Below, piece by piece: positions 3-47,613 of a stretch of DNA of 64,000 nt. Numbering within the stretch: the stretch's first letter is position 1; every line of letters begins with the position of its first letter. This stretch comes from a virus, in IMG/VR virus record IMGVR_UViG_3300021197_001995, positions 1 through 64,000 of that record. One strand, given 5' to 3'. The notes under the pieces were generated by a model that saw only the letters and a list, made by a program, of their open reading frames with translations, was not told the DNA's origin and did no database searches. A program made the translations under genes and the position numbers.

Positions 3-149
3 GGTAATACCACAAAAAAGAAAGGCTGGAAAACGATGAAATTGAGAAACTTAAATCCAAAGGCAGGAAATGCTTTTCTAGCCACACACAACTGCGAAAG
101 CCCGGTCCCAAAATGGAAAGCAAGATACTGGTCCTGTAGAGCTTGGTAA
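3..149 (+). CDS. C-terminal fragment of a small basic phage protein (HNC-x2-PGPKWKARYWSCxxW type), truncated by window start
   Basis: Frame 3 reads GNTTKKKGWKTMKLRNLNPKAGNAFLATHNCESPGPKWKARYWSCRAW* with TAA at 147-149. The C-terminal motif resembles small basic proteins of large myophages. Not in the ORF track. Confidence 0.65.
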   Translation, partial: GNTTKKKGWKTMKLRNLNPKAGNAFLATHNCESPVPKWKARYWSCRAW

Positions 150-150
150 G

Positions 151-390
151 ATGATTAAAAACTATTTAATAAAGATAATAGAAGAAGAACTTACTGCAGT
201 TTTAGACGAAAAACGCAAGAAAAGAAAAAAGAAGAAAAAGAAAAAATCATCCGGTAAAAAAGATGCATGTTACAATAAAGTAAAGTCTAGATACAAAGTC
301 TGGCCATCAGCATACGCTTCCGGCGCTCTTGTAAAATGCCGAAAAGTAGGCGCAGCAAACTGGGGAAATAAGAGTAAAAAGAAAAAATGA
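151..390 (+). CDS. Small Lys-rich protein with acidic leader; putative internal head protein
   Basis: MIKNYLIKIIEEELTAVLDE leader, poly-Lys tract, then DACYNKVKSRYKVWPSAYASGALVKCRKVGAANWGN. Confidence 0.7.
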   Translation: MIKNYLIKIIEEELTAVLDEKRKKRKKKKKKKSSGKKDACYNKVKSRYKVWPSAYASGALVKCRKVGAANWGNKSKKKK

Positions 391-32058: not shown

Positions 32059-32586
32059 GTGACTTCCGGAATAAAAGCTTTAACTGAAAAATCAAAATCA
32101 AAAAAGGCAAACTCTAAATATCAGCCGACTTTTCCACTGGATTATGATGGGAACAACGGGCCTTATAGGTCTGTTGACTCACTGGTAGAATCCCTGCAGA
32201 GAAACTTTGAGATCCTTTTGTTAACGCACCCTGGCTCTTGGCCAATGAATCCCGCCATGGGAATCGGATTGGAGTCTTATTTGTTTGAATCACACAATAC
32301 TGGAATTTTGCTAGGCCTGCAGGCAAAAATAACAAGTCAACTTGCAATGTTCCTGCCAAGTGTGCAATTAATGAAAGTAGAACTTCTATCTACTGAAGAT
32401 CAGAGGGATAGTAGCTTTATGAACGTAAGATTAATTTATTCTATACTTGGAAAGACCACAGCCAGCTCTACAACAAGTCGCGATAGTTCTGGAGACATCA
32501 ACCTAGAAACAGGGCTTCTAGATAAAGACGCGTCATCGTTCCGCGACCGCGCAACAAAGCTGCAAAGTCACATGACAGAGATATAA
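32059..32586 (+). CDS. Baseplate protein, gp25/GpW-like
   Basis: QRNFEILLLTHPGSWPMNPAMGIGLESYLFE ... I..QL..FLPSV matches the gp25 pattern LLT.PGER...P.FG.GL..YLFE. Confidence 0.8.
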   Translation: MTSGIKALTEKSKSKKANSKYQPTFPLDYDGNNGPYRSVDSLVESLQRNFEILLLTHPGSWPMNPAMGIGLESYLFESHNTGILLGLQAKITSQLAMFLPSVQLMKVELLSTEDQRDSSFMNVRLIYSILGKTTASSTTSRDSSGDINLETGLLDKDASSFRDRATKLQSHMTEI

Positions 32587-32612
32587 AAGAATGAAGATTG
32601 GAGAAAACTAGA

Positions 32613-34418
32613 ATGTCAAAAAACAACAAAAGAGGCTCTTCGGATACCAATTTCGCAAATGTAACGTTTGATGAGATAAAAGAAAGGCTGGTAAACAGAG
32701 CAAAAATCTACTATCCAGACACTTATAAAGATTTTAACGAATCCAGCTTCGGATCAATGATGATCGACTTAATCTCCCTTGTGGGAGAGCAATTAAACTT
32801 CTATACTCAATTTGTAGCGAATGAAAATTACATCTCATCAACTAGAACAGTTCAAGGAATGACGGCCGCGGCCAACCGTGAAGGGATACAGATCTCAAAC
32901 AACTACACTAGTGTGGGAACGGTCAACTTTTACGCGCGAATCCCGGCAGATTCAATCATGTCTGGACCGGACAAATCTTATCAATTCACGCTTCTCCGCG
33001 GCGCCATAGTCGCTAACGATTCTGGCGGAGTGTTCACGGTCTCAGAAGACGTGATAGTTGACACTAACACCGACAACATAATAGGTACAGAATATACAGA
33101 TGATGGGTCTAGAATAACATACTATGTCTACGAGATCGAAGTGCCAGTTGTATCTGGAGAAGAAAGAACATTTACTGCCGACATAGGAACTTATAGGAAA
33201 TTTTTGAAACTTGAAGTGAAAGATGACACTGTAAGTTCTATTCTGAGCGTCGTGGATTCTAACGGCAATGAATTCTTTGAGGTCCCAAACCTGAGCCACG
33301 ATGTCGTTTACAAAGAGGTGTTAGACAGGAAGAACAACGACCCAAACACGCCATCTAGGTTAGTACCGACTCCTGCCCCTAGAAGGTTTGAAGTTAGGTT
33401 TGAGGGGGATAGGACATTTTTAGTATTCGGATTCGGATCCGAGAGCACTCTCAAGGTAAAGGGGGTGGCCAACCCTAGTGATCTGGCCCTCGACAGATCA
33501 GGGAGAAGTTATGTCTCTGACACCGCATTCGATCCTTCGAAATTATTATCTAGTAATAAGTTCGGGGTATCACCACAAAACACGACCCTGACGATTGTTT
33601 ATAGATCTAACACTTCGGAAAACTCAAACGCCGCAGCTAACACAATAAAAAATGTGGTCTCCGCGGAGTTGTTATTCAACTCAGAAGAAACGCTTGATAA
33701 AGCAAAGCTGAGCCACATTAGATCTTCAATGGCCTGCACTAATCTTGAGGCTATAAATGGATCCCTGACTTTTAACTCAACTCAAGAAATTGCAGAAACC
33801 ATACGTTCCGCCAGAGGCTCCCGCGGCCGCGCTGTCACTTTGCAAGATTACACAGCTATGTGCTACACTATGCCCTCAAAATTCGGATCAGTGTACAGAG
33901 TCTCTATACTTAAAGATGACAATGACTTGAAGAGGAACTTAAACCTTTTCGCAATAAGCCAAAGCAAGGACGGATTCCTCCAGGCGCCAAGCAAGGTTTT
34001 GAAAGAAAACCTAAAAAGGTGGTTAAATGTAGGAAGGATGGTTTCAGACACAATAGATATCTTTCCTGCAACCATACTAAACCTAGGAATTTATTTCGAC
34101 GCAGTGCTGTCGAACAGAGTCAATAAAGCCACGGCACTGTCAGAGATAAGAAGTAATCTATTTTCAGAACTTAAACTTTCAACACCACAAATCGGACAGT
34201 ACTTCTCAGTGGGAGAAATTGAGAAAATACTAAACAACATGCCAATGATTTCCAGAGTCAATAACGTAAAGATTTTACTCAAAACGGGGCAGAACTATTC
34301 AGATACAAGATTCAGTGTTTCAACTAATGTTTCCCATGACGGAAGCTTAATTTATGTCCCGTCTAATTTTATTTGGGAAGTTAAGTACGAAGAAGATATA
34401 ACAGGAAAAATAGAATAA
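32613..34418 (+). CDS. Baseplate wedge subunit (T4 gp6-like)
   Basis: F..IKE.L......YPD.Y.DFNESSFG.MMID...VG..LNFY, FGFG and RAVTLQDY. GGAGA SD before the ATG at 32613. Confidence 0.85.
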   Translation: MSKNNKRGSSDTNFANVTFDEIKERLVNRAKIYYPDTYKDFNESSFGSMMIDLISLVGEQLNFYTQFVANENYISSTRTVQGMTAAANREGIQISNNYTSVGTVNFYARIPADSIMSGPDKSYQFTLLRGAIVANDSGGVFTVSEDVIVDTNTDNIIGTEYTDDGSRITYYVYEIEVPVVSGEERTFTADIGTYRKFLKLEVKDDTVSSILSVVDSNGNEFFEVPNLSHDVVYKEVLDRKNNDPNTPSRLVPTPAPRRFEVRFEGDRTFLVFGFGSESTLKVKGVANPSDLALDRSGRSYVSDTAFDPSKLLSSNKFGVSPQNTTLTIVYRSNTSENSNAAANTIKNVVSAELLFNSEETLDKAKLSHIRSSMACTNLEAINGSLTFNSTQEIAETIRSARGSRGRAVTLQDYTAMCYTMPSKFGSVYRVSILKDDNDLKRNLNLFAISQSKDGFLQAPSKVLKENLKRWLNVGRMVSDTIDIFPATILNLGIYFDAVLSNRVNKATALSEIRSNLFSELKLSTPQIGQYFSVGEIEKILNNMPMISRVNNVKILLKTGQNYSDTRFSVSTNVSHDGSLIYVPSNFIWEVKYEEDITGKIE

Positions 34419-36238
34419 TGTCAATTAAAAGATTTATAGCAAACAAAGATAACACAATCACGGACGCATTCAATCCCGGTAACAGAACCAGGGGCACATC
34501 GTCCAACATGGGCGCCTCGGACAGCGCGGAAATATTCTCCATTTATGCCCAAGCGAATACCAGCTCCCTCGAACGCGCACGCGCATTATTTGAATTCCCA
34601 ATCCAAGAAATCCTAACGTCAAGAAACGCAGGAAAGATCCAAGCCTCAGGGTCAGCTACTTTTAGATTAAAGATTTTCAACGTAGAGCATACGTCTACAA
34701 CTCCAGAAGACTTTAAACTCGTAGTATCTCCGCTCTTAGAACCCTGGAGCGAAGGTATCGGACTAGACATGGAAACGTATACGGACAAATATGCTTCAAA
34801 TTGGTTGTCATCCAGCCTTGCTACCGCCTGGAAATACCCGGGATCCACTCACGCGGATTCCATAAAAGAAGACTTTGCTCTTAATGCAACTAGTGAGAAT
34901 TACGAACAAACTTTCTCAACAGGCCACGAAGATTTATCTATAGATGTAACTCCGCTTGTAGAAAAATGGCTGTTACATGAAGCTGGAAACTCTATAAAGG
35001 CATCCGGATCAATACAATTAACCGGTGTCCCAACATCCGGCCACCAGATAAAGCTGTATACTTATGGGGGAGATAATCACTTGTTTCAGTTTTCGACATC
35101 ATCAGTGAACGGAGACTCACTCTCTTACGTTGAGATTGCAGCAGGAGACATACCCGCTACCAGAAACAACCTTTTGACCTCAATAAGCGCCACAAGTAAA
35201 TTTACTGGCCAGGCCGCCGCCACAGATAAAGTTATAGTAAAGCAAGTGACGAGCGGGTTTTATGGAAACACTAAGATTTCTTCTAGCGCAGGTACACCAA
35301 TAGCTGCAGTAAACTTCGCCGGCGGAACAGGAATCGTGAATTATGGTCTAGTCGCGAAGCTTTCCGGATCCGCAGAAACTGGGGCGACCAAAGCATCTTA
35401 TTACACTAAGCGTTTCTCAACCAGAAAATCAGAATTCTTCATGAAGCGCCCGGTAATAGAAGTTCAACAGTCTGTGGTCATAACAGACGACCGAGGCAAT
35501 TTAATTAAATCTTCTGTCTTGGCAGAAGAAAAAGATAATTTAAATAAAATTTATTTCTACAACTACATTAATAACTCCCTCAAGGACATACCCTCCGCGG
35601 CAATACCCAATGGACTGATCGTAAGGTTAGCCACTTCTTCAGCCGGCAGCGCGGATGTGGAATTACACGGTCCAAATACTCACGGGCGCCATGCATTGGC
35701 TACTAAGATTTCCACAGGAGTATACGAGGCCCAGTTCGGATACAGCGGCTCTGTATCAACGCTTTATGATGTTTGGCAGGTTTCAGGAAGCAACCCAGCA
35801 ATTTATACAGGTTCAGCAATGAAAGTGAATTCTTTAGCCTTTCAACAACGCAAGGGAAATCAAGATTACACAATAAATATAACCAACTTAAAACCCTCTT
35901 ACAGAGCAGACGAAGTTGAAACTTTTAGAGTGTATACTAGAAACAAAGACTGGTCACAGAATGTGTACACCAAAGCAACACAGACGGCGCCAGTAGACAC
36001 TATAAAAGAATCATTCTATAGCGTGAAGAGAGTAGCGGACAATCATGAAGTAATCTCTTACTCAACATCAAGCGCAACCGCGTATTCAAAACTATCTTAC
36101 GATGCAAGTGGTTCTTTTTTCGATTTGGATATGTCAATTCTAGAACCAAACTATTTATATGAAGTAAGCATCTTGAGCAAGCAAGATGATAGCTATGTAG
36201 AACAAAAAGAAAAGTTTAGGTTTAGAATAGATCCATGA
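34418..36238 (+). CDS. Putative baseplate/tail structural protein with one inserted AATAT...FxGG module
   Basis: KRFIANKDNTI start, DVTPLVEKW...NYGL, and KRFS...EFF..RPVIE. Module at about 35000-35326. Confidence 0.7.
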   Translation: MSIKRFIANKDNTITDAFNPGNRTRGTSSNMGASDSAEIFSIYAQANTSSLERARALFEFPIQEILTSRNAGKIQASGSATFRLKIFNVEHTSTTPEDFKLVVSPLLEPWSEGIGLDMETYTDKYASNWLSSSLATAWKYPGSTHADSIKEDFALNATSENYEQTFSTGHEDLSIDVTPLVEKWLLHEAGNSIKASGSIQLTGVPTSGHQIKLYTYGGDNHLFQFSTSSVNGDSLSYVEIAAGDIPATRNNLLTSISATSKFTGQAAATDKVIVKQVTSGFYGNTKISSSAGTPIAAVNFAGGTGIVNYGLVAKLSGSAETGATKASYYTKRFSTRKSEFFMKRPVIEVQQSVVITDDRGNLIKSSVLAEEKDNLNKIYFYNYINNSLKDIPSAAIPNGLIVRLATSSAGSADVELHGPNTHGRHALATKISTGVYEAQFGYSGSVSTLYDVWQVSGSNPAIYTGSAMKVNSLAFQQRKGNQDYTINITNLKPSYRADEVETFRVYTRNKDWSQNVYTKATQTAPVDTIKESFYSVKRVADNHEVISYSTSSATAYSKLSYDASGSFFDLDMSILEPNYLYEVSILSKQDDSYVEQKEKFRFRIDP

Positions 36239-39200
36239 CAGATTACAGCAAAGAAATAAGACACTTAACATCAAGAGAGAGAGAAGAGTTTTTCAAGAAG
36301 AAGAAAGTTCATTTTCACAATGAAAAGGATCGACTACTAAGTAGTGATCTTGAGAGTGATAATGAAATGAAGAAATACTCGGAATTGATCAAATCATTTA
36401 GGCCCGATGTTAAAGCAAAGCATCCTGGCACATTCTCTTTTTACGGAAGCGCAGAGCAATACTATAAAGACGCGATATATAACATACTTAATTATTATCC
36501 GTTTGATGGAACAAAAGAAGAGGTATTGAAGTGGTACCTAGAGTCACCGCAAATCGACGTCGCTCTTCTCCGGCAGTTTTGGCCAACAAGTGTCGGCCAT
36601 CTAGATTTTAAATATAGCGAATACTTGCCTTTTTATGCCGGCCCGCAGTCTATACCGGAAGCGGAGTTTTTGGGAAAATACACCAAAGGTGAAACCGCGT
36701 TAAAAATAGGGGGAGAAAAGGGGAACACTGCTGAATTTTGGCTGCAAAAAGTCGATTTCAATTCTGACACGGCGGCCCAAGAAACGATCTTTCATATAGG
36801 AACGCACCCTGGGAAGAAAAACGCGTCTGAATCGGCGAATTTCAAAGTATATCTTTCTGCGACTGCATCTGGAAATCCTTTTCATTTGACCTATAAGTCT
36901 GGTACGATAGGGGCAACAGATCTGCAGTTAAATACAAAGTCACTCACAAGACCGGCCGTCGCTGATTCTAAATGGCATCACTATGCATTCAAGATAACAG
37001 AAGAAAACACAAAATTAATAATTAAAACGTACATCGACGGCCAATTTGATGCAACAACGGAACATTCAATGGGATCAACGATGGGCACAGTTGACACCTA
37101 TATGGCTGGTGCACTCGCGGCTAACATTTCAGACACAACCGGTAATTTGTCCGGCTCATTAGACGACTTTAGATTTTGGAAAGGCGCCCGAACTGAAAAA
37201 CAAATATCTAAATTTTACGATAAAAAAGTGTACGCGTCAGACACTACTAAGTTAAACTACGACTCGCAATTGGGAGTACATTTTTCATTTAATAAAAAGC
37301 CTGTAGGTGTTAGTGATAAAGATAGTCTGGTGCTCGATTCATCCGGAAACGATGTTTTGGGTAGAATAAAAAACTACTCGACTACTTGCAGGAGGGACAC
37401 TTCTGCGATTGACCTGCACTCTGCAAGTGCAAACACAGAATCTCCCGACCCGGTTCTTGATTATGCCAATCCTCTTGTGGTGGCCTTGTCTGAAGAGTTA
37501 GAGAAGATAGGTAAATCTTATGATAAGAACAATAACAAAACCTTAAAAACCTACCTACCAGACTGGACGAAAAAAGAATCCAAAGATTCTCAGTCGCATA
37601 AAGAATTCGAGCTATTGCTTCAAATTCTGGCGACAGAATTCGATGCAATAAAAATGAAGCTCGATTCAGTAAGAAAATTAAGCGCGCCAGAGTATTCTGA
37701 AGCTTTTCACCTCTCGGACACCCAAGCAGAAGGTACAGCAAACGTCAAGATATACTCAGAGTGCGGAGATAGCATTTACTTCAACTGCGCGGACAATGAT
37801 TTGGATCATGATCTAATAGCAGGCAATGAGATCGATTTTTCAAAAAAACTCTTAGAAGATATGGGACTGGAGTTGCCGAACAACTTGCTGCTGTTTCTTG
37901 CAACGCCGGAAGAAGAAGCTCACTCTATAGTCGAAAAACAAACATTAGAAAGAAGCATCTATGAAACGCGACAATTGATGTATAAGGCTCTCGCGAACGC
38001 CTATACGTTCGCTGGTTCACGTAAGGGCGCCGAAAGCTCTTACAACTCTGTACTGAACTCTGTAGCTCTAGGTAACGAGGTCATTTCTACTAACATAATG
38101 GGCCAAAACGCAGATCTGTTTGTAACTGACGCGAAATCTGATAATATTTCTAAGGATATGAAAAGTATTTCATTCGCACAAAACCGGGATGTGACACTGT
38201 TTTTGGATAACACGCTCAGCCAAGACAGAACATTTTTAAAGGCAGACCAAGAAGAGACAGAATATACGTTTGAAGGTACTTTTATCTTTCCAACAAAATC
38301 CTCTCTAGAATACGACATTTCGTCGTCTTCAATTTTTGGATTACACCAGGTTGCTGGAACAAATGGAACCCTAACAACGTCGTCACCAGACAAGGCCAGT
38401 TTTCAGGTTTTTGTCGACAAGGAAAATGAGTCATCTTCAAGTGCAAAATTTACCTTAAAGTCAAGTTCCGGAATAATAAGCGACATAAGTACAGATCTAA
38501 TCTACAGTGTCTATGACAATCAACCATGGAACATAGCGCTTAGAATAATAAAAGAGTCAGACAGTAAATTTATGCCACAAAACGCGTCAACTGTATTCAA
38601 AGTGCAGCTTCTAGGGCACAGCTATATAGGGTCTGAGTTGGTGGAAAGTTTTAAAATAGAGTCAGAAATCACCCAGGCTCAGTTTCAAAATTTTCGACAA
38701 TCGCACAAAACTGTATTTATAGGCGCTCATAGAACAAACATAACAGGTAATCTGATAGATTCTAGTGACATCAAAGTCGTGGACTTTAACGGCTGGAAAG
38801 CTATGTTGACAGATGAGGAACTCAAATTGAGGGCCCAGAACCCTGAACGTTATGGCAGGAATCAAAGCTTTATCTCTAAGGATTTACAAAACAATAAATC
38901 AACAGCAAGAGATCTTATTTTTAGAATGTCCCCTTATGCTTTATCGGATCTAGATTCAGAAAACAAAGTTTATTTGTATGACCTTTCAGATGGCTCTGTA
39001 GAACTTAAAGAAAAATACGGAGATCTTATAGGGTCTAGGTACAACTTTAAGTCAACAGCCTTTTCTTCGGATTTGAAGAACGTAATACATCAGGAATTCA
39101 TTTCTGTTATGGAAAATACGCCCATACAGAATCTTTATGGAAAAGATGGAATTCAGATAAAATCCAACGATTTTAACAAGTTTGACGTTGACTCTCGCCC

Positions 39201-42200
39201 AGAGATAAAAATCATGTCATTTGAAAAGAGCATGTATCGATCAATCTCCAAAGAGATGATTAATTTTATTTGCGGGATATCATCATACAACAACCTCATA
39301 GGCACCCCAGTAAATAAATATAGGAAGAAGTATAAATTATTGGACCACCTGAGAGGCCAGTTCTTTGAGGGGGTCAAAAACGATAACCAGTTCGAAAGGT
39401 ACGTGAAATACTATCGATGGATTGATAAGACAATCGGTGAGTTCTTAGAGCAATTAGTACCAGCGTCCATGAGGTCAAACACTGGCATAGAAAACGTAGT
39501 GGAATCTCACACTCTTGAAAGGAATAAGTACGATCACAAAATTGTAAAGATTAACACGAAAGACTTAGACCTGTCGACTAATTTATTATCAATTAATGAG
39601 CTTTTGTATGATTGGGAACATGGTCATTATTCACCCACGGAAGCAGACCATTGTCTTTGGCATCGCGACCGCGCACCTAGAGCTACAATTAGAGAAAGTT
39701 ATCAAAAGGCCCTGACAACTGTAGTGACGGGCTCTAACCACGGCTCACACTTTAGAAACTACGCACTCCGTAACCTGGTGAAGCCGTATAAGTACGCTGC
39801 AGACAAGCAACTAGATCTAAAAGTTGGGTCAAACAGGCGCGCCAACGTAATAGAAGACCTATACAAAATCATCAACGAAGGTAAAGAGATAACTCTCAAA
39901 AGTGAAGACGTCTACGAATTCAAGAAATGTAACGATGTCTTGGATCCGAACGAGAAGAAGAAATTTACAGCAAAAGTAGATGTCTCAGGTACATCCGGCT
40001 ATCTAGACGGAGACGCAGACTTGATTTTACCTTTCAGTCTTTTTAGTTCATCCGCAGGTATCGACTTCACGGACTTCCAGCGAGGCATGATGATAACAAA
40101 CAATCATGACGACACGGCTACATTGCAGAGCCCATGGATAAGAGAGAACGTAGGAGGCATGCCTCACCGAAGAGTCAAGTTTAACAGTTTAAGTAAAGAT
40201 GCAAACGGTAAAGACAAGGATAGGCCCGAAGCATACGACATAAACAATGTCATGACTGCAGCCACCGCAACTTTCACTTTTGGGGATACTGAGTTCGATG
40301 ACACCAATAATGCTTCGATAACACTTACTGATGCTGCAGGTCTATCAAAAACTTATGTAATCCGGAATGATTATGGCGCTTCCTCTGCGCTTGAGTTTAA
40401 TGCAGGCGGCAACACGAACGCTGCAGCAGAAAATTTTATCATTCTCGTAAACAGCACCAATGGTCACAACGGAACAATTATCGCGGAGAGAACCAATGGC
40501 GCAATTACTTTGACTCAAGCTACAAAAGGACCATACGGAAATACAGCAATTGCAATCTCAAATTGGAATAACATTACAGATGTTAACGCTCCATCTAAGT
40601 TTTCTGGAGGTACCGCAACATTAAAGGTAAAGGCAAATCCTCGATCTCAATCTATGTTCCACCGAGATCTCGGAGGCGCGCGCTTCTACAACATCGCAAA
40701 CATCAAAACAGAAACATCTGGGTCTCAAACTTTAACGAGAGGAAACTACACAAAGGATTATGAAATCGTCCAAACCATGGGCCGAAACATAAATAATTCA
40801 TATTTGGTCGACATCGAAGGCGCCGGTCTTGAGGGTAATTATTCACCGTCGTCTCTCTTATCTGGAGTTGTGGACTTTTCGACAGAAAGGAACACACCTT
40901 GGCCAAGTATGTTCACGGCCTTGGCCGCCACAGCGACAGTGAAAATTACAGCAGCACCGCTCGAAGGGGAACAGATAACCATAACCTCTCTACAAGGAAC
41001 ACAAAAAACATACACAGTAGCCAACTCAGAAAATCTATCAGCCCGGAATTTTGTCAAAAGTACGTTCAAGTTAACATCTTTGAGTCTGGTATCTTGTATT
41101 AACTCTTCGCATGGTCACGATGGCGAAATTGTCGCATCTTACGACAATGACACTGAAACAATAAACCTGACCCAAAGTACTCCCGGGAAGTCCGGCAATG
41201 TATCTGTCACGCACAACTTGTCCAACACAACCGTAGTCGGATTTACAAACGGCCGCGGCGTCCAAGGAGAGGAAGTGTATGCGCCGCCTGCAAGAGCGCG
41301 AAGAGAACATGTTTTTGTTAATAGGTTTAGTCCAATTGGTACTCCGGAAACACAAGGAGTTTATGGTAGAGATAGAGTATCCGGAGAGTTCTCGATCTAT
41401 AGCACGGTTAACTACAGAAATAGAGTACACAGGGAAGTATATGACAACCTTTCACAAGAGAGATCTGAGCAATTTGGCATTAGACAAAACAGCACCACGC
41501 AGGGATCTATCCATAAGACAAACAGGAACCTTCAGAGGTTTACAGGCTCTGCAGAAACGAGCGAACTCGATTATGCTACTGCTACTTTTACTTTTGGAGA
41601 TACAGAATTTAATGATACAAACAACGCGTCAATAACCCTCATCAACGGTTCTGGGCTCTCAAAAACATATGTCATTAAGAATGATTATGGAGCTTCTGCA
41701 GCAACCGAATTTAATGCCGGCGCTAATGTCGGCGTTGCAGCGGAAAATTTCATACTCCTAGTCAACGGCGCAAACGGACACAATGGTACCATCACTGCCA
41801 CGCGCGTCGGAGGAAAAATAACCCTCACTCAGGCCCATGGTGGCCAAGAAGGAAACACAGCAATCACTGCCTCTAACTGGTCGTCTATTACGGATGTAGA
41901 CGCACCCACGGCATTCCGAGGCGGAGCGTCCCGAGGTTCTAACGCAGATAACTTCTTCGTACAGCATCAGATGCCGCAAAACGACTTCGGGTACTCTTGG
42001 ATAACAGCTTCGGCAAACGAAGATGTATATAGTTTCTTGGGCAAGAACGCTAACCATGGCCACCAGCATACATTTGAATTGTCTGGATTGCTAAAGTCTA
42101 GTCAGACAATCTCTTTCGTAGACTCTTCCCCGATCTCATCAGGCTTAGATTTTATCGGTCTGAACTCGATAGCTGAGAAAACCTTGTCTACTGACACGAA

Positions 42201-45200
42201 TTTAATTTCAACCGCGCCATCAGTGCATTTGAATAGTGTACTTTTGAACCGACAGGGTCCATATGGTTGGCCATCATGGCGCCAGATACGCGGCGGAGAC
42301 CATCCTGTAAGTCGAAAGCTTAGAAGTGACAACTTGTTTTCGATTACAACCAGAGCCACCACCGGAGGTACCAGCGTTTTCCCAGAGTCATACCCGGGCA
42401 ACAGCTTTGATCTTAGCCTCGGCACCAGCGCCGGATCGGTCTCTCGAATACCTGAATTCCCTCGTCGGCCGTATACTAATCCTAGAGAGGTATCAAATTA
42501 CAAAGAAGTTATGATCTCAAATAGGTTCAGGCCAATAAACTTTAGCATTCACTTGATGTCTGAGGATGCCTCCGTAGCCCGAGGTGCATTAAACGACATC
42601 GCTTTTATGAACTCTAGAAACACACAAGAGCTTTATCAGTCATCTTGGTTTTATGATAACTTTTTTGAATCCATAGGTGTAAGCGTTGACGGTACTAGAT
42701 CACGCCCAGAAGATTTACCAACCTTCTCTAGTAAGTTTACCATACAGAACGATTTATCAAAGTTAGCAAATCAAGAGTTGTTTGACAAAATCAGGCTAAA
42801 TGAGAGTAAATTTTACAACAACGCAAACTTGCAAAAACTTAACTTGATGATTAATAGAGTCGAAGGCGAACTGTCACTGCCCTCGATCTTGAAGGAAGTT
42901 AATTATGTGGAAAAGATTTACCCTAGGGAAGTAAACACTTTTACGTCCACCGCTCGAAACCGAAACCTATTCGACTTTTTCGGGTGGAAAACTAGTCGCG
43001 ACTCTCGATCTTTGATCCTCGACGGAAACCTAAGCTATTCTGGTTATTATGCGGTATCGGACGGTGGCATCACCAACAAGCTTTTTCCTATAATAACAAC
43101 AGCGAACCAGCAAAAGGAATTTATAAGCTCATATTTTGATAAGGTCGAATTTGTAGATTTAAATCACATAGATTCGACCGCGGACGTAGCATCCGCTGGT
43201 ATCCATATAACTTCAAGTAAGTGGGTTCTCGATGCCCGCGCGACATTCACTTCTTTGCCAACGAATGTGACTGCTTCTTATTTTACAAGTGGGTCCACCT
43301 GGATGTCGACAAGAACACAAGGGACCAGAGGAGAGGGTATTTTGCAGAACGATTATAGTATCTTCGCTTTGGGTATAAATAATCTTTACGGCGCGCCCCC
43401 AATCTCTCCATTATATAACAGAAGAATGCCACAATCGTATCAAGACAATGAATATTTGTCAGGAGAAAGTCTGTGGAGCATGGGAATTGATCATAAAATC
43501 GGGCCTTTCTATGACGAATACAAAGAATTTTCAAAAGAGTCCAGGATTGTAGGTCAGCAGTACTCTCTGGTTCCAGAATTTACCATGAGTAGATATACGG
43601 AAGATCTATTAAACACTCTAGCAGACAACAACAGTAATTTCGAGCAAGAGATTGAAAATATAGGAGATTTCTTGCAAGTAACAGGGACGACTTATCACAC
43701 GTCCTCACAAGAATTTGAGATCGGTTCAAAGTTTTTCAAGACATACTCAACTAGTGATTTTTTAAAGTACTTCGCAGACTTTGATAGAAACACTCAAAGT
43801 AACGAATTCGAGTTGAGCCCTTTCAGGCTGAACCTTAGGTGCAAGGCCGTAAAAAGATTCTTGCCATACAGAGGGTTTTATCCGGCCGAGCGAGCAGTGC
43901 AACTTTCAGAGATCTTCGCAAGGTGTTATTTGGACGATAGTTCTTACACTTATGAGGAAACACCGGGCGCCCTGAACTTGATTTCTACTTCTGCCAAGAT
44001 AAAGAATCTTCTAGACCTTAAAATACAAAATTCACGCGCCCAAGCGACTAAATTGCTTTTCGGCCCGGGCGTATTGTTCAACTCGATAAAAACCGGAATC
44101 GCGGTGGATTATCCTATTTTTTCATCGTCTAACGGGTCTTTCGACGCAAACATTATAAATTGGAGCACGCAAAATAACTACGTACCGCTCAACGACTTCT
44201 CGCAGATAAGCGCAGGCTCGATAACTTGCGTAACAGGGTCATTAGTAAACTCAACGACTGACTCTGGAATCCCAAGAATTAAGGGATCGGTCTCTAGGAG
44301 GGTTACATTTGACGACTTCCTGGAACCTCATAAAATGTTCGGCGAAAAAATATATGATAACGAACCACATCCAAGCGCCAGTTTATACTACGGCTCCAGT
44401 CTGCACTTTAGGACTCTTGAGCGTCCATTCACCTTTGGCGGATTAAATAGAGATGATACGAAGCGTTACAATGGAGTATCGTTTAATAACACTACTGCAT
44501 CTTTTTATAGGTCAATGAGGCCCTATTCTGCTGCAGCAAATAACTTCGCCTCTGAGGCAGTAGATTTCTTTTTAGAAAAAGGGGAACTTCAAACCCTAAT
44601 GTCTGACCCGGTAGAGCCTCTGTTGACAGAAAATGTTCCGTACACCATGAGAGTGTATTTGTTTAATAATCAAATCTCAATGTATGACAGGCACTCGGCC
44701 TTCGGGCCCCCGGTGCACGACGGAGACATAAACTTCACCACCTATTCTGTCACAACCTATCCGGTCGCCGCCATAGCTGCCCAGGGAAAGATAGATTTCA
44801 GCGACTTTGTGGGTATTGATGCCGAAAGTGCACTGCACAATTTGCAACTTACCTTGACAAGTACGTCCGGACTCTCAAAAACGTATAAATTTAACGGCGG
44901 TACCGCCGGTACGCAAGCGCTCGGCTCGATAAACTTCAGCCATTATGCTGAAGCCCTCGGCGCCGACAATGTATTTGACACAACAACAGTAACAATGAAG
45001 TCAACTTCCGGAAGCACAGTTAAAACTTATGTGTTTACAAGCACCTCTAGTGATGGTGCAACTGGAACCGTCAACGGCAGTTCACAGGTTATAGTGCAGA
45101 CAGATGGAATAGTAAAGTTGTCTGACACTGTAGCCCAGCTAGAAGCCGCCATAGCTCATTCGAATGGTCACAATGGAAAGATCTTGACGTCATACAACTC

Positions 45201-47613
45201 GTCAACGGAAATTCTTTCTCTTACTCAGTCCCACGTTGGCAGTAATAGTACCGCCATCTCAGGAACAGGCAACATTGTTGCTGGAAAGGCTGAACCTAGC
45301 GGCTTCACAGGAGGATCATCTGGCCAAGAAGCGACAGGTTTCTTTGATGGATCAACCGTGCTTGTCGCAATGAACGGTCAAAACATTTTAGGAATAGCTC
45401 AACAATTGGTCATAGCCATTAACCATTCAAATGGCCACGGAAACACCCTCGCAGTCAGCCATTCCGGCAACGGTGGTGTCTTTTACATAACACAAGCAAC
45501 AGCAGGTTCAGCCGGCAACAAAACCATCACCGCAACTGGTGCGCTAAGTTCAAGAGTCTCGGGTCTAGTTGGAGGTGCCAACGCAACCACTGCACCTAAC
45601 CAGTTCTTGACACCTTCTAGCGCCACGAGGACTAACTCACATGGGTTTTTGCCTTATGTGCCACCATTTTTAGACCCCCAAACGTTCCCCTTTGCGGAGA
45701 TTTCGTTCACACCCACGGCAACTAGAACATATAGTGTCCCAGAAATAATCGAAGCTTCGACAATAACTTACAATAATGGCATACCGACATCAACAGCCGC
45801 CGGCAGCACTAATTATCAGAACTCCATGAACTTGTCTGCCAGCTTAGATCTCCGCGGCTCCGCTATTTTGAGGAGCGATAATGTGTCTTATAGGAGGCTT
45901 TCAAGCCCAAATAGTCGGGGCACCCTGACTGAGATGGTAAGAGACCCTGAATACGATCGCCCAAGGTGGATAATCCAGACAAAGTGGGAAGCTCCAGTTT
46001 TAGATTTTTCAAGCGCTGAAGTCAAAGCTCTAAAACTTAATGACAACACAGTCGCGACCGTTACAGGCTCTCCGTGGAAGCTAAGGTCGCAAGATAATTA
46101 CTATGAAGAAAAAGCACAATCATCAGTACCATATCTGACATCTTCTACTGGTATGTGGCACCAGTCAGGTTCTATCCCATCAGTCGACCAGGGATACTTC
46201 TTAGCTATATCTGGACCTCCTAACGAATCTACGACACAGGGAAACCTAGCCCGAAAGCTTGGATTTGTAAAAGACAACGCTGACAGTGATCAAAACGCGG
46301 CATTCGACCCTGATTCCGTAAAGAAGTTGGGGGTTATTGCAAAGGACAAGGAGGTCTGTGAAGCTGTAGTCGCAATTCCGTTCTTTAGCTCTGGCGATAA
46401 TACTGACATAGAGTTCTTTGAACTCAACGCAGCCGAATTACAAAAAGCCGGCCAGGCGAATACGGCCGCTCAAGAGAGACATGTGCAATTGCTGCACGAA
46501 AGGTCGGTAGCAGACCATGAAATACTTAAAGATAGCTATAAGGAGTTTTACGACAACCCGTCTAGCCCAACTGGAAGATTTAACATAGCATACCAACTTA
46601 GGATGATGGATAAGTTTATTCTCCCTCCTCATTTAGACTTTGTGAACAACCCCAGGATAAAGCCACACCTACAGTTTTTCTTTCAGTTCAAGGCAAAAAT
46701 AACACAAACTCAACTTAAGGATCTGTGGCAGAACGTTTATCCAGACTCGGATGTTGGCATTTTCAAGGCTCAACATTCTAGTATACGGCCAACCCAAGAG
46801 CAAGTGGAAAATTTTATAGAGACTTCTGATGTGGAGTTTTTATCCACCTATTTGGATGTCGATCCAATGATCGACTTTAAACAAATAGCCTCAAGTTTTC
46901 AAACGCCTGAAGACTTTATTGGAAACAAAGTTAGGTGGTTAATTTTTAAGGTAAAATACCGCGCAATGTCAGATTACACAGACCTAAAATTAAAGTCTCT
47001 GACCCCGTCCGGTGTTGTGGCAGACGTTTTACAGAGGAACGGACTAGTGGTTCGTAACGATAAAGTCCGCGCCGGCAAAGCTATTCAATTTAACTGGCCA
47101 TATGACTTCTTTTCTATTGTGGAATCTGCACAAATAGAAAGTAAAGTCGACTATTATTCAAAATTCGAAGTGGGCCAAACAGGTGCAGAATCTCCGTCGT
47201 CACAAGTGCAATCATTTGAAATGGTGACCTCAGAAGACGCTGTAGAAGAGTACACCACGCATGCTTCGGCCTACACATCTGCGGCCGCCTCTGGTGGTAC
47301 AGCCGGCGGTCAGTCGTCAACTCAGTATTATTCTCTGGTTGGATCAACAGAAGCGACAGAGGGTCTAGTTATACGACAGTTAATAAAATCAGACGAAGTC
47401 AATGCACCAAGCCCTGCAAACGTATATACGTTTACCGTGGACACAGGATATACAATGAAAACTAATTCAGAATCTATTTATGTTAACGGGGTATTGCAAG
47501 CAGAAGGTGCATCGAACGATTACACTATCAGTGGGAACACAATAACCTTCACTGAGAACATAGAAAATTCTTCCTCAATTTACATGACTTATTTGAAGCA
47601 GAAGAATAGCTAG
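36235..47613 (+). CDS. Giant (3792 aa) tail/baseplate protein with LamG-like domains and five inserted modules
   Basis: LamG-like TAEFW...DSKWHHYAF...YIDG...GSLDDFRFW. C-terminal IYVNGVLQ...DYTISGNTITF domain typical of phage tail proteins. Confidence 0.8.
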   Translation: MTDYSKEIRHLTSREREEFFKKKKVHFHNEKDRLLSSDLESDNEMKKYSELIKSFRPDVKAKHPGTFSFYGSAEQYYKDAIYNILNYYPFDGTKEEVLKWYLESPQIDVALLRQFWPTSVGHLDFKYSEYLPFYAGPQSIPEAEFLGKYTKGETALKIGGEKGNTAEFWLQKVDFNSDTAAQETIFHIGTHPGKKNASESANFKVYLSATASGNPFHLTYKSGTIGATDLQLNTKSLTRPAVADSKWHHYAFKITEENTKLIIKTYIDGQFDATTEHSMGSTMGTVDTYMAGALAANISDTTGNLSGSLDDFRFWKGARTEKQISKFYDKKVYASDTTKLNYDSQLGVHFSFNKKPVGVSDKDSLVLDSSGNDVLGRIKNYSTTCRRDTSAIDLHSASANTESPDPVLDYANPLVVALSEELEKIGKSYDKNNNKTLKTYLPDWTKKESKDSQSHKEFELLLQILATEFDAIKMKLDSVRKLSAPEYSEAFHLSDTQAEGTANVKIYSECGDSIYFNCADNDLDHDLIAGNEIDFSKKLLEDMGLELPNNLLLFLATPEEEAHSIVEKQTLERSIYETRQLMYKALANAYTFAGSRKGAESSYNSVLNSVALGNEVISTNIMGQNADLFVTDAKSDNISKDMKSISFAQNRDVTLFLDNTLSQDRTFLKADQEETEYTFEGTFIFPTKSSLEYDISSSSIFGLHQVAGTNGTLTTSSPDKASFQVFVDKENESSSSAKFTLKSSSGIISDISTDLIYSVYDNQPWNIALRIIKESDSKFMPQNASTVFKVQLLGHSYIGSELVESFKIESEITQAQFQNFRQSHKTVFIGAHRTNITGNLIDSSDIKVVDFNGWKAMLTDEELKLRAQNPERYGRNQSFISKDLQNNKSTARDLIFRMSPYALSDLDSENKVYLYDLSDGSVELKEKYGDLIGSRYNFKSTAFSSDLKNVIHQEFISVMENTPIQNLYGKDGIQIKSNDFNKFDVDSRPEIKIMSFEKSMYRSISKEMINFICGISSYNNLIGTPVNKYRKKYKLLDHLRGQFFEGVKNDNQFERYVKYYRWIDKTIGEFLEQLVPASMRSNTGIENVVESHTLERNKYDHKIVKINTKDLDLSTNLLSINELLYDWEHGHYSPTEADHCLWHRDRAPRATIRESYQKALTTVVTGSNHGSHFRNYALRNLVKPYKYAADKQLDLKVGSNRRANVIEDLYKIINEGKEITLKSEDVYEFKKCNDVLDPNEKKKFTAKVDVSGTSGYLDGDADLILPFSLFSSSAGIDFTDFQRGMMITNNHDDTATLQSPWIRENVGGMPHRRVKFNSLSKDANGKDKDRPEAYDINNVMTAATATFTFGDTEFDDTNNASITLTDAAGLSKTYVIRNDYGASSALEFNAGGNTNAAAENFIILVNSTNGHNGTIIAERTNGAITLTQATKGPYGNTAIAISNWNNITDVNAPSKFSGGTATLKVKANPRSQSMFHRDLGGARFYNIANIKTETSGSQTLTRGNYTKDYEIVQTMGRNINNSYLVDIEGAGLEGNYSPSSLLSGVVDFSTERNTPWPSMFTALAATATVKITAAPLEGEQITITSLQGTQKTYTVANSENLSARNFVKSTFKLTSLSLVSCINSSHGHDGEIVASYDNDTETINLTQSTPGKSGNVSVTHNLSNTTVVGFTNGRGVQGEEVYAPPARARREHVFVNRFSPIGTPETQGVYGRDRVSGEFSIYSTVNYRNRVHREVYDNLSQERSEQFGIRQNSTTQGSIHKTNRNLQRFTGSAETSELDYATATFTFGDTEFNDTNNASITLINGSGLSKTYVIKNDYGASAATEFNAGANVGVAAENFILLVNGANGHNGTITATRVGGKITLTQAHGGQEGNTAITASNWSSITDVDAPTAFRGGASRGSNADNFFVQHQMPQNDFGYSWITASANEDVYSFLGKNANHGHQHTFELSGLLKSSQTISFVDSSPISSGLDFIGLNSIAEKTLSTDTNLISTAPSVHLNSVLLNRQGPYGWPSWRQIRGGDHPVSRKLRSDNLFSITTRATTGGTSVFPESYPGNSFDLSLGTSAGSVSRIPEFPRRPYTNPREVSNYKEVMISNRFRPINFSIHLMSEDASVARGALNDIAFMNSRNTQELYQSSWFYDNFFESIGVSVDGTRSRPEDLPTFSSKFTIQNDLSKLANQELFDKIRLNESKFYNNANLQKLNLMINRVEGELSLPSILKEVNYVEKIYPREVNTFTSTARNRNLFDFFGWKTSRDSRSLILDGNLSYSGYYAVSDGGITNKLFPIITTANQQKEFISSYFDKVEFVDLNHIDSTADVASAGIHITSSKWVLDARATFTSLPTNVTASYFTSGSTWMSTRTQGTRGEGILQNDYSIFALGINNLYGAPPISPLYNRRMPQSYQDNEYLSGESLWSMGIDHKIGPFYDEYKEFSKESRIVGQQYSLVPEFTMSRYTEDLLNTLADNNSNFEQEIENIGDFLQVTGTTYHTSSQEFEIGSKFFKTYSTSDFLKYFADFDRNTQSNEFELSPFRLNLRCKAVKRFLPYRGFYPAERAVQLSEIFARCYLDDSSYTYEETPGALNLISTSAKIKNLLDLKIQNSRAQATKLLFGPGVLFNSIKTGIAVDYPIFSSSNGSFDANIINWSTQNNYVPLNDFSQISAGSITCVTGSLVNSTTDSGIPRIKGSVSRRVTFDDFLEPHKMFGEKIYDNEPHPSASLYYGSSLHFRTLERPFTFGGLNRDDTKRYNGVSFNNTTASFYRSMRPYSAAANNFASEAVDFFLEKGELQTLMSDPVEPLLTENVPYTMRVYLFNNQISMYDRHSAFGPPVHDGDINFTTYSVTTYPVAAIAAQGKIDFSDFVGIDAESALHNLQLTLTSTSGLSKTYKFNGGTAGTQALGSINFSHYAEALGADNVFDTTTVTMKSTSGSTVKTYVFTSTSSDGATGTVNGSSQVIVQTDGIVKLSDTVAQLEAAIAHSNGHNGKILTSYNSSTEILSLTQSHVGSNSTAISGTGNIVAGKAEPSGFTGGSSGQEATGFFDGSTVLVAMNGQNILGIAQQLVIAINHSNGHGNTLAVSHSGNGGVFYITQATAGSAGNKTITATGALSSRVSGLVGGANATTAPNQFLTPSSATRTNSHGFLPYVPPFLDPQTFPFAEISFTPTATRTYSVPEIIEASTITYNNGIPTSTAAGSTNYQNSMNLSASLDLRGSAILRSDNVSYRRLSSPNSRGTLTEMVRDPEYDRPRWIIQTKWEAPVLDFSSAEVKALKLNDNTVATVTGSPWKLRSQDNYYEEKAQSSVPYLTSSTGMWHQSGSIPSVDQGYFLAISGPPNESTTQGNLARKLGFVKDNADSDQNAAFDPDSVKKLGVIAKDKEVCEAVVAIPFFSSGDNTDIEFFELNAAELQKAGQANTAAQERHVQLLHERSVADHEILKDSYKEFYDNPSSPTGRFNIAYQLRMMDKFILPPHLDFVNNPRIKPHLQFFFQFKAKITQTQLKDLWQNVYPDSDVGIFKAQHSSIRPTQEQVENFIETSDVEFLSTYLDVDPMIDFKQIASSFQTPEDFIGNKVRWLIFKVKYRAMSDYTDLKLKSLTPSGVVADVLQRNGLVVRNDKVRAGKAIQFNWPYDFFSIVESAQIESKVDYYSKFEVGQTGAESPSSQVQSFEMVTSEDAVEEYTTHASAYTSAAASGGTAGGQSSTQYYSLVGSTEATEGLVIRQLIKSDEVNAPSPANVYTFTVDTGYTMKTNSESIYVNGVLQAEGASNDYTISGNTITFTENIENSSSIYMTYLKQKNS
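40261..41925 (+). repeat. Dispersed protein-level repeat: two 117-codon copies (40261-40611 and 41575-41925) with a diverged copy between them (40924-41253)
   Basis: ATATFTFGDTEF.DTNNASITL....GLSKTYVI.NDYGAS...NGHNGTI...ITLTQA...GNTAI..SNW..ITDV.AP..F.GG aligns without gaps, with about 32 of 117 residues differing by hand count. Confidence 0.9.

What the first reader, a model, noticed from the sequence alone, without database searches (positions are those of the whole stretch)
44776..45576. Nested insertion: one module copy sits inside another copy
Seen: the outer copy starts AAQGKIDF...LTLTSTSGLSKTYKFNGG and is interrupted by a complete second copy, TAGTQALGSINF...VKTYVF...AAIAHSNGHNGKI...LSLTQ...FTGG (about 44902-45315). 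It then resumes SSGQEATG...IAINHSNGHG...YITQATAGSAGNKTI...LVGG. The order start-start-end-end is what nesting gives, not tandem duplication. Inference: the module can insert into its own loop and build an extended stalk, which is the strongest evidence here that it behaves as an insertion unit.
Basis: seen in the sequence. Interest (0 to 1): 0.78.

Follow-up and report, generated by a model that had tools for sequence, protein, structure and literature searches.

The report
Protein domain nested inside its own copy
In a giant tail-baseplate protein of an uncultured marine phage, one copy of a ~135-residue surface domain sits inside a loop of a second copy; related phages repeat this up to about six levels deep at the same site, which suggests a variable-length stalk.

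Summary
Window 44767-45585 lies in a 3792-aa ORF (36235-47613). It encodes outer N-half (aa 2845-2889), a complete inner module (2890-3027, DNA 44902-45315) and outer C-half (3028-3117).

- **Alignment.** A profile built only from 12 single-copy modules of other proteins aligns the excised, re-joined outer halves full length (41.6 bits; best of 200 shuffles 6.1). A profile of unsplit copies stops at position 42 in the N-half and resumes at 46 in the C-half.
- **Structure.** AlphaFold2 (pLDDT 81.9) gives both copies the same order of elements, b1-b3 | b4-a1-b5-b8. I could not inspect coordinates.
- **Fold.** The fold resembles FliD D3, flagellin outer domains and tail-sheath insertion domains (Z about 7-8).
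- **Relatives.** Across 74 homologs the site is empty (10), holds one module (12), NNCC (13), or N^k...C^k up to k = 6. Some carry 200-655 aa at the centre.
- **Pairing.** Shell orthology is mirror-symmetric, and duplicated halves in one relative diverge equally only under nested pairing.
- **Age.** The nest is ancient (45% nt identity, no DNA repeats) and under purifying selection, so it is not mobile DNA.

A one-level self-insertion of a FliD-like domain is already published for a flagellin. The deep recursion appears new. The scan noted this same stretch once before in an overlapping window, not on other DNA.

The parts
36235..47613 (+). 3792-aa ORF (P0001), a giant virion protein in the baseplate gene cluster and host of all the module copies
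   Evidence: It lies downstream of a gp25-like gene (PF04965) and a gp6-like baseplate wedge gene (phrog_10646; 26-28% identity to 'baseplate wedge protein' of Flavobacterium phage immuto). 74 giant homologs were found in marine metagenomes.
44452..44751 (+). Conserved core segment upstream of the insertion hot-spot (aa 2740-2839)
   Evidence: It matches 74 of 75 proteins. In 10 of them it abuts the downstream flank within 0-12 aa.
44767..44901 (+). Outer module, N-half (aa 2845-2889; strands b1-b3, ends KTYKFNGG)
   Evidence: Profile positions 3-42 of the unsplit-copy profile, E 7.7e-4. AF2 strands at model residues 11-15, 32-36 and 42-48.
44902..45315 (+). Inner module, complete (aa 2890-3027), inserted in the b3-b4 loop of the outer module
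   Evidence: Profile 2-140, E 1e-46. The AF2 domain at model residues 52-191 matches FliD 5fhy_B (Z 8.2, rmsd 2.5, 103 aligned) and sheath insertion domains. dN/dS 0.05-0.09.
45316..45585 (+). Outer module, C-half (aa 3028-3117; b4, helix, b5-b8, ends SGLVGG)
   Evidence: Profile 46-140, E 7.5e-11. AF2 elements E203-206, H212-224, E233-237, E243-248, E259-261 and E269-273 mirror those of the inner copy.
45607..45906 (+). Conserved core segment downstream of the hot-spot (aa 3125-3224)
40255..40620 (+). Unsplit module copy C1 (aa 1341-1462)
   Evidence: The site is empty in about 60 homologs.
40918..41262 (+). Unsplit module copy C2 (aa 1562-1676)
41569..41934 (+). Unsplit module copy C3 (aa 1779-1900)

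Best explanation
Residues 2845-3117 of the giant baseplate-cluster protein form two copies of one ~135-residue alpha/beta domain. Its fold resembles FliD D3, flagellin outer domains and sheath insertion domains. The inner copy is inserted in the b3-b4 loop of the outer copy, so the chain runs outer b1-b3, then the whole inner domain, then outer b4-helix-b5-b8.

The arrangement works because the module's first and last strands lie next to each other. The module can therefore be plugged into a surface loop, including the equivalent loop of another copy, without breaking the host fold. Repeating this gives a hairpin-like stack in which the chain goes out through the N-halves and back through the C-halves, as in flagellin.

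The stack projects from a hypervariable loop of a conserved core. Related phages carry 0 to about 6 shells there, some with a 200-655-aa unidentified segment at the centre. I infer that the nest is a length-adjustable spacer or display stalk on the periphery of the baseplate. In this phage the tip is the inner module itself.

Shown: the nested order, the complementary break point, conservation, the recursion in relatives and the pairing rule. Inferred: physical stacking, surface exposure, the role in host contact and the DNA mechanism. My guess for that mechanism is illegitimate or register-shifted recombination among the homologous module-coding segments of related genomes.
For: - **Joined outer halves align full length.** Singles-only profile, 41.6 bits against at most 6.1 for 200 shuffles.
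- **Complementary break point.** The break falls at profile position 42/46.
- **Structure prediction.** AF2 with a 7-sequence alignment gives pLDDT 81.9 and pTM 0.60. The outer halves carry b1 b2 b3 | b4 a1 b5 b6 b7 b8 in the same order as the inner copy.
- **Truncation control.** Removing the outer C-half from the input loses outer strand b1 and lowers pLDDT of residues 11-30 from about 82 to about 65.
- **One fold per module.** The single module is one fold. FliD D3 aligns over 103 residues within model range 53-190, a range that includes the N-half strands.
- **Architecture in homologs.** Of 35 homolog inserts with 3 or more half-units, 31 have all N-halves before all C-halves. The series runs NNCC, NNnCCC, N4...C4, N4nC5 and N6-(655 aa)-C6.
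- **Mirror symmetry.** P0019 and P0015 have one extra first N and one extra last C relative to P0004/5/6/28/31. All 12 protein pairs with clear registers obey 'extra outer N = extra outer C'.
- **Tree.** A tree of shells joined under nested pairing gives level-specific clades with 96-100% support.
- **Duplicated halves in P0033.** N3~N5 is 76% aa / 72.7% nt and C2~C4 is 72% aa / 71% nt, whereas N2~N4 is 41% and C3~C5 is 42%. These values are concordant only if N_i pairs with C_(k+1-i).
- **Selection.** dN/dS is 0.05-0.27 on all three parts.
[quoted passage not shown] The XM1 sheath insertion domain resembles FliD D3 (10.1101/2021.12.18.469577). The crAss001 gp36 FliD-like FD domain is inserted in a PH domain (PMC10172136).
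Against: - No coordinates or contact map were available, so contact between outer N-half and outer C-half is not directly seen.
- In the truncated model the outer b2-b3 hairpin kept pLDDT 81-85, so that control is only partly informative.
- Fold matches of Z 7-8 are in the range the tool calls middling, and there is no sequence-level link to FliD, flagellin or any Pfam family.
- The mirror-symmetry pairs reduce to one or two evolutionary events.
- Some relatives show unequal N and C counts. This is probably a detection limit for the 45-aa N-half, but it is unproven.
- Tandem NCNC arrays also occur at the same site (P0030, P0048), so nesting is not the only way the site grows.
- The function is inferred from position and variability only.
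Confidence: 0.85

Rival explanations
1. One intact module flanked by two decayed partial copies. On this reading a former tandem array NC-NC-NC lost the C-half of the first unit and the N-half of the third, and the outer pieces do not fold together.
For: Tandem arrays of full modules do exist at this very site in P0030, P0048 and P0054. The outer N-half alone is only weakly detectable (E 7.7e-4; not detected with the singles-only profile).
Against: - The two pieces break at the same profile position (42/46) and together cover the whole profile once.
- The layout is conserved in 13 orthologs, down to 29% identity in alignment A1, and both outer pieces are under purifying selection (dN/dS 0.12-0.27).
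- Deeper relatives keep equal numbers of N and C pieces, with mirror-symmetric orthology.
- AF2 gives the outer pieces ordered strands at pLDDT 80-88.
Confidence: 0.05
2. The N-half and the C-half are two independent small domains, each of which expands by tandem duplication. On this reading NNCC is an N-array followed by a C-array, with no pairing.
For: N-units and C-units are each strictly contiguous arrays. A single unequal crossover could easily change either array.
Against: - N and C counts track each other from k = 1 to 6.
- In the single module the N-half strands lie within the range of one compact fold that superposes on FliD D3.
- In P0033 the divergence of duplicated N-units matches that of the C-units at the nested-symmetric positions, not elsewhere.
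- An extra first N always comes with an extra last C.
Confidence: 0.05
3. Parallel, domain-swap-like pairing. The first N-half pairs with the first C-half and the second with the second, which gives two interleaved rather than nested domains.
For: Sequence order alone cannot exclude it for k = 2.
Against: - The inner N-half and the following C-half are contiguous, with a normal-length loop like the single copies.
- P0033 divergence values are discordant under parallel pairing: 76% with 42%, and 41% with 72%.
- Shell gain or loss is mirror-symmetric.
Confidence: 0.03

Closest known systems
Geovibrio thiophilus flagellin outer domains D4/D5 (PMC11532411; PDB 9au6)
   Same: A FliD-D2-like domain was duplicated and the copy inserted within one of its own loops, giving a one-level self-nest on a surface-exposed appendage protein. 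9au6_A is among the fold matches of the module (Z 4.5).
   Different: That case is a bacterial flagellin with one level. Here the host is a phage baseplate-cluster giant protein, and its relatives reach about 6 levels. There is no detectable sequence similarity. Whether the insertion loop is the equivalent one was not tested.
FliD (HAP2) D2-D3 and flagellin D0-D3 hairpin architecture
   Same: These give the best fold matches (5fhy_B Z 8.2, rmsd 2.5 A, 103 aligned; 4nx9 Z 7.1). Each outer domain is inserted into the previous one, so the chain goes out and comes back (established knowledge of flagellin and FliD structures).
   Different: In flagellin and FliD the nested domains are mostly of different folds. 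Here one homologous module is reused recursively. Pfam Flagellin_IN does not match.
Insertion domains of contractile-tail sheath proteins (cyanophage A-1(L) 8kee, XM1 gp6 7kh1, Mu 9khy, Milano, E217) and crAss001 gp36 FD domain
   Same: The same fold class (Z 7-7.8) is used as a loop-inserted, surface-exposed decoration of phage structural proteins. The XM1 authors noted FliD D3 similarity (10.1101/2021.12.18.469577). The crAss001 gp36 FD domain is inserted in a PH domain (PMC10172136).
   Different: Those are single insertions into a different host fold, not a copy inside its own copy.
T4 gp18 tail sheath three-domain nest (my own knowledge of Aksyuk et al. 2009, not checked here)
   Same: A Russian-doll topology: domain I is inserted in domain II, which is inserted in domain III.
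   Different: It has three unrelated domains and a fixed depth.

Membership tests
Nested (discontinuous-host) domain insertion | The host domain is split into two pieces that together cover the domain profile exactly once | tested here: met
   Profile 3-42 plus 46-140. The joined halves align at 7-147 of 153 with 41.6 bits, against at most 6.1 for shuffles.
Nested (discontinuous-host) domain insertion | The guest is a complete domain between the two pieces | tested here: met
   The inner copy covers profile 2-140, E 1e-46. The AF2 domain 52-191 has block-mean pLDDT of about 69-94.
Nested (discontinuous-host) domain insertion | The two host pieces pack into one domain in 3D | tested here: inconclusive
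   The tools return no coordinates. The evidence is indirect: matching order of secondary-structure elements, loss of outer b1 when the C-half is removed, and single ~100-residue domains aligning to model range 5..276-280 at Z about 3.
FliD D2/D3 and flagellin outer-domain fold | Structural superposition on FliD or flagellin outer domains | tested here: met
   5fhy_B Z 8.2, rmsd 2.5, 103 aligned; 4nx9 Z 7.1; 5h5w_B Z 6.5. All of the top ~25 rows are FliD, flagellin or phage tail, baseplate or capsid structural proteins. Z is middling by the tool's own calibration.
FliD D2/D3 and flagellin outer-domain fold | Sequence membership (Pfam Flagellin_IN PF07196 or other FliD/flagellin families) | tested here: not met
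   No Pfam hit at E <= 1-10. PF07196 was not found in the 159-kb genome at E <= 10. The profile against PDB sequences gave nothing below E 0.1.
Mobile DNA insertion (intein, homing element, MITE-like) | Terminal or direct repeats, target-site duplication, or near-identical copies at the DNA level | tested here: not met
   Self-blastn of 44701-45650 finds only chance 9-15-nt matches. Inner and outer copies share 45% nt identity in aligned codons.
T4 gp7-type peripheral baseplate wedge protein | Gene order gp25 - gp6 - ... - large wedge protein | tested here: met
   gp25 (PF04965) lies at 32059-32586 and a gp6-like gene at 32598-34418. The same order is seen on the P0008 contig and in phage immuto.
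T4 gp7-type peripheral baseplate wedge protein | Sequence or structural similarity to gp7 | tested here: inconclusive
   There is no PDB sequence hit for the 3792-aa protein and no Pfam or PHROG hit. The core was not folded.

The most novel reading that the evidence does not exclude
A single FliD-like module is a recursively self-insertable building block. A lineage of large marine myoviruses stacks it 0 to about 6 deep at one loop of a giant baseplate protein. This forms a hairpin stalk of tunable length that in some phages carries a distal 200-655-aa segment. Shells are added or removed symmetrically, both inside and outside, by recombination among the homologous half-module coding segments. 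That would be a homologous Russian-doll nest deeper than any I found described, and a natural design for length-adjustable display scaffolds.
Probability: 0.5. Interest if true: 0.75.

Novelty: new variant of a known kind. Interest (0 to 1): 0.62.

Why it matters
Domain insertion is a known route of protein evolution. Insertion of a domain into its own copy is rare, and it is documented once for this fold class, in a flagellin.

Here the same principle is seen in a phage giant protein. In its relatives it forms a graded natural series at one site: empty, 1, 2, 3, 4, 5 and about 6 shells. That series makes three questions directly testable:
- How do deeply discontinuous domains fold?
- How are balanced N and C halves gained and lost at the DNA level?
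- Does stalk length tune the reach of a baseplate appendage to the host surface?

The module also has adjacent termini, tolerates guests in its b3-b4 loop and is found in at least 647 protein clusters. These properties make it a candidate scaffold for engineered loop display.

Tried and rejected
- Pfam and PHROGs on the whole 3792-aa protein gave no family. Pfam on the seven nested segments gave only noise. PF07196 Flagellin_IN in the genome gave nothing.
- PDB sequence searches gave nothing significant, whether with the whole protein, with the module profile, or with the P0033 central segment.
- tblastn of aa 2557-3422 against 50,697 phage records gave no match. An IMG/VR scan with the single segment found no relative.
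- DNA-level repeat or target duplication at the junctions: none found, so a mobile-DNA reading is rejected.
- Identity of the central 'cargo' of deeper relatives:
  - A module profile iterated on all hits drifted and was uninformative.
  - Atlas features gave only leads: RTX-like at 0.88 for P0015, and viral hypotheticals and crAss_AuxCP at 0.89-0.91 for P0033.
- The tree could not resolve whether the window's inner and outer copies are sisters, because the backbone is unresolved.
- The truncation control by AF2 was only partly informative.
- A paper search for 'Russian doll' domains in phages found nothing relevant.

Full report
**Context.** The finding lies in one ORF, window 36235-47613 (+), of 3792 aa (P0001). 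The genome is a 159-kb IMG/VR virus record.

The gene sits in a myovirus baseplate cluster:
- a gp25-like gene at 32059-32586 (PF04965);
- a gp6-like wedge gene at 32598-34418 (phrog_10646). It is 26-28% identical to proteins of Microcystis phage Mel-JY01 (annotated hypothetical) and of Flavobacterium phage immuto (annotated baseplate wedge protein);
- a 606-aa ORF, then the giant ORF, then a 277-aa ORF.

The same order is found on a relative's contig. The giant protein has no Pfam, PHROG or PDB sequence match. It has 74 giant homologs (2100-6300 aa) in marine metagenomes.

**The observation.** The protein holds three unsplit copies of a ~120-135-aa module: aa 1341-1462, 1562-1676 and 1779-1900. 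At aa 2845-3117 the order is N-half (2845-2889), complete copy (2890-3027, DNA 44902-45315), C-half (3028-3117).
- Excising the inner copy in silico and joining the outer halves gives a sequence that aligns end to end with the unsplit copies. Identity is 28-32% to those copies and 37% to the inner copy.
- For a non-circular test I built a profile from 12 single-copy modules of other proteins only. The joined outer copy aligns over positions 7-147 of 153 with 41.6 bits (E 7.5e-15). The best of 200 shuffles scored 6.1 bits. The C-half alone scores 26.9 bits.
- With a profile of unsplit copies (A3), the outer N-half ends at profile position 42 and the outer C-half resumes at 46.

So the two pieces are complementary at a single break point. 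That point lies just after the 'KTYxF' strand.

**Structure.** AlphaFold2 on window 44752-45606, with a 7-sequence alignment of orthologs (A1), gave mean pLDDT 81.9 and pTM 0.60.
- The inner copy has E54-61, E79-82, E91-96 | E113-116, H123-135, E144-149, E154-162, E170-172, E181-186.
- The outer copy has E11-15, E32-36, E42-48 | E203-206, H212-224, E233-237, E243-248, E259-261, E269-273.

This is the same order of elements, interrupted after the third strand. The tools return no coordinates, so I could not measure contacts.

As a control I folded the segment without the outer C-half (A2). The outer first strand disappeared, and pLDDT of residues 11-30 fell from about 82 to about 65. The b2-b3 hairpin stayed confident. 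This result is partial. It fits a module whose first strand pairs with its last.

In the structural searches a few single ~100-residue domains align to model range 5..276-280 with about 90 residues at Z about 3. That is weak support for one compact outer domain.

**Fold.** The inner domain (model residues 52-191) matches the following:

| Chain | Protein | Z |
|---|---|---|
| 5fhy_B | FliD (rmsd 2.5 A, 103 aligned) | 8.2 |
| 8kee_A | sheath of cyanophage A-1(L) | 7.8 |
| 7kh1_A6 | sheath of Vibrio phage XM1 | 7.5 |
| 9khy_a | sheath of phage Mu | 7.5 |
| 4nx9 | P. aeruginosa flagellin | 7.1 |
| 1el6 | T4 gp11 | 6.0 |

Sheath proteins of Milano and E217 also match, as does crAss001 gp36 (7qof). 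Z of 7-8 is middling by the tool's calibration, but the list is coherent. BFVD gives many phage structural proteins, including baseplate J-like, major tail and sheath proteins.

Papers describe this fold class as an inserted decoration:
- the XM1 sheath insertion domain resembles FliD D3 (10.1101/2021.12.18.469577);
- the crAss001 gp36 FD domain is inserted in a PH domain (PMC10172136);

At the sequence level there is no link to these families.

**Relatives: a hot-spot with a graded series.** I anchored on 100-aa conserved flanks and measured the insert at this site in 74 homologs.

| Insert length | Number of proteins | Content |
|---|---|---|
| 0-12 aa | 10 | empty |
| 140-174 aa | 12 | one module (aligned) |
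| 276-297 aa | 13 | NNCC |
| 439-442 aa | 7 | about three modules |
| up to 1560 aa | remainder | larger inserts |

Half-module profiles give these architectures: NNCC; NN-(~55)-CCC; NNN-(59)-CCCC; NNNN-(38)-C-CCCC; NNNN-(204)-CCCC; NNN-(385)-CCC; NNNN-(652)-CCCC; and NNNNNN-(655)-CCCCCC.

Of 35 inserts with at least three half-units, 31 have all N-halves before all C-halves. Tandem NCNC(NC) arrays also occur at the same site (P0030, P0048, P0054).

The central segments of the deepest nests are unidentified. Only weak leads exist, including resemblance to crAss auxiliary capsid protein.

**Which N pairs with which C.** Three independent lines support nested pairing.
1. P0019 and P0015 have one extra first N and one extra last C relative to P0004/5/6/28/31. 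In all 12 protein pairs with a clear register, the number of extra outer N-halves equals the number of extra outer C-halves. These pairs reduce to one or two evolutionary events.
2. A maximum-likelihood tree of shells joined under nested pairing gives level-specific clades across proteins. Inner copies of P0001/2/7/8 group at 98/96 and the outermost shells of P0009/15/19 at 100/99. P0004/31 shell 1 groups with P0015/19 shell 2 at 98/88, and the single copies P0023/37 join that group as sister at 96/91.
3. In P0033 (locus L009), N3 and N5 are 76% identical (72.7% nt) and C2 and C4 are 72% identical (71% nt). N2/N4 are 41% identical and C3/C5 42%. These values agree only if N_i pairs with C_(7-i). 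Parallel pairing would couple 76% with 42%.

**Age and selection.**
- Inner and outer copies share 45% nt identity, and no DNA repeats or target duplication flank the inner copy.
- The NNCC layout is kept in orthologs down to 29% identity.
- Against two close relatives, dN/dS is 0.05-0.09 for the inner copy and 0.12-0.27 for the outer halves.

The nest is therefore ancient and maintained, and the outer copy evolves about three times faster in protein.

This rate difference may explain why the single-copy relatives P0020/21/32 resemble the inner copy more (scores 199/174/120 against 102/102/58). P0023/37 resemble the outer copy more. The direction of the founding event cannot be read from these data.

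**The module as an insertion unit.**
- The three unsplit copies in P0001 are clean presence/absence insertions. At each site the flanks abut in about 60 of 65-73 homologs, and the site is occupied sporadically in a few others.
- A profile search of 1.84 billion representatives finds the module in 647 clusters at E <= 1e-3 (253 at E <= 1e-10). The proteins range from 156 to 3950 aa.
- NNCC layouts recur in unrelated short proteins (P0100, P0103, P0115, P0121, P0137), and tandem layouts recur too.

So the module is a widespread plug-in domain with a propensity to nest. Nothing suggests autonomous DNA mobility.

**Interpretation.** The best explanation is a true nested self-insertion of a FliD-like plug-in domain. 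In this phage it forms a two-shell unit on a hypervariable loop of a giant baseplate-cluster protein, and in relatives it forms a stack of up to about six shells.

A spacer or display role at the baseplate periphery is inferred from gene context, variability and the analogy with flagellin and sheath outer domains. It has not been shown.

The DNA mechanism that keeps N and C numbers balanced is unknown. Candidates are insertion of contiguous module DNA from related genomes, or register-shifted double recombination.

**Novelty.** One-level self-insertion of this fold class is published for a flagellin, and heterologous nests are classic in flagellin, FliD and T4 sheath. A homologous module nested recursively to about six levels at a single hot-spot was not found in the papers I searched. 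For the window itself (k = 2) this is a new member of a known kind. For the family-wide recursion it is a new variant.

The scan noted this same stretch once before in an overlapping window (e1-5725606), not on other DNA.

Noticed in passing
window 40255-40620, 40918-41262, 41569-41934: The three unsplit module copies are clean presence/absence insertions. The same sites are empty in about 60 homologs and sporadically occupied in a few others, some holding 200-400 aa there.
   Followed up: partly
L009 (P0033) 7608-8003 and 10464-11360: A recent duplication of one split module. N3~N5 is 72.7% nt identical and C2~C4 is 71% nt identical, at nest-symmetric positions and separated by another shell. 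How both halves were copied together is unexplained.
   Followed up: partly
window 56316-57794: This 492-aa ORF has a weak full-length module-like match at about aa 212-329 (E 3e-3 with the unsplit-copy profile). The closest fold matches of the module are insertion domains of ~490-505-aa tail sheath proteins, so this ORF might be the sheath. Not tested.
   Followed up: no
window 44752-45606 versus L001:8979-9833 and L004:5649-6503: The outer (host) copy evolves about three times faster in protein than the inner (guest) copy. dN is 0.13-0.27 against 0.03-0.11, with dN/dS below 0.3 throughout.
   Followed up: yes
P0030, P0048, P0054 (same site as window 44752-45606): Some relatives fill the same hot-spot with tandem full modules (NC NC NC) instead of a nest. 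Both growth modes therefore operate at one loop.
   Followed up: partly
modules throughout P0001 and its orthologs: The module has invariant positions: Y and F of the 'KTYxF' strand, 'NGH' after the helix, 'LTQ', and glycines of the 'G..GN' and closing 'F.GG' motifs. The conserved His hints at a ligand or metal site. Not examined.
   Followed up: no
L009:8133-10097 (P0033 centre) and L007:7915-8526 (P0015 centre): The 204-655-aa segments at the centre of the deep nests have no Pfam or PDB match. Language-model look-alikes are viral hypotheticals and crAss auxiliary capsid protein, or RTX-like, all below firm thresholds.
   Followed up: partly
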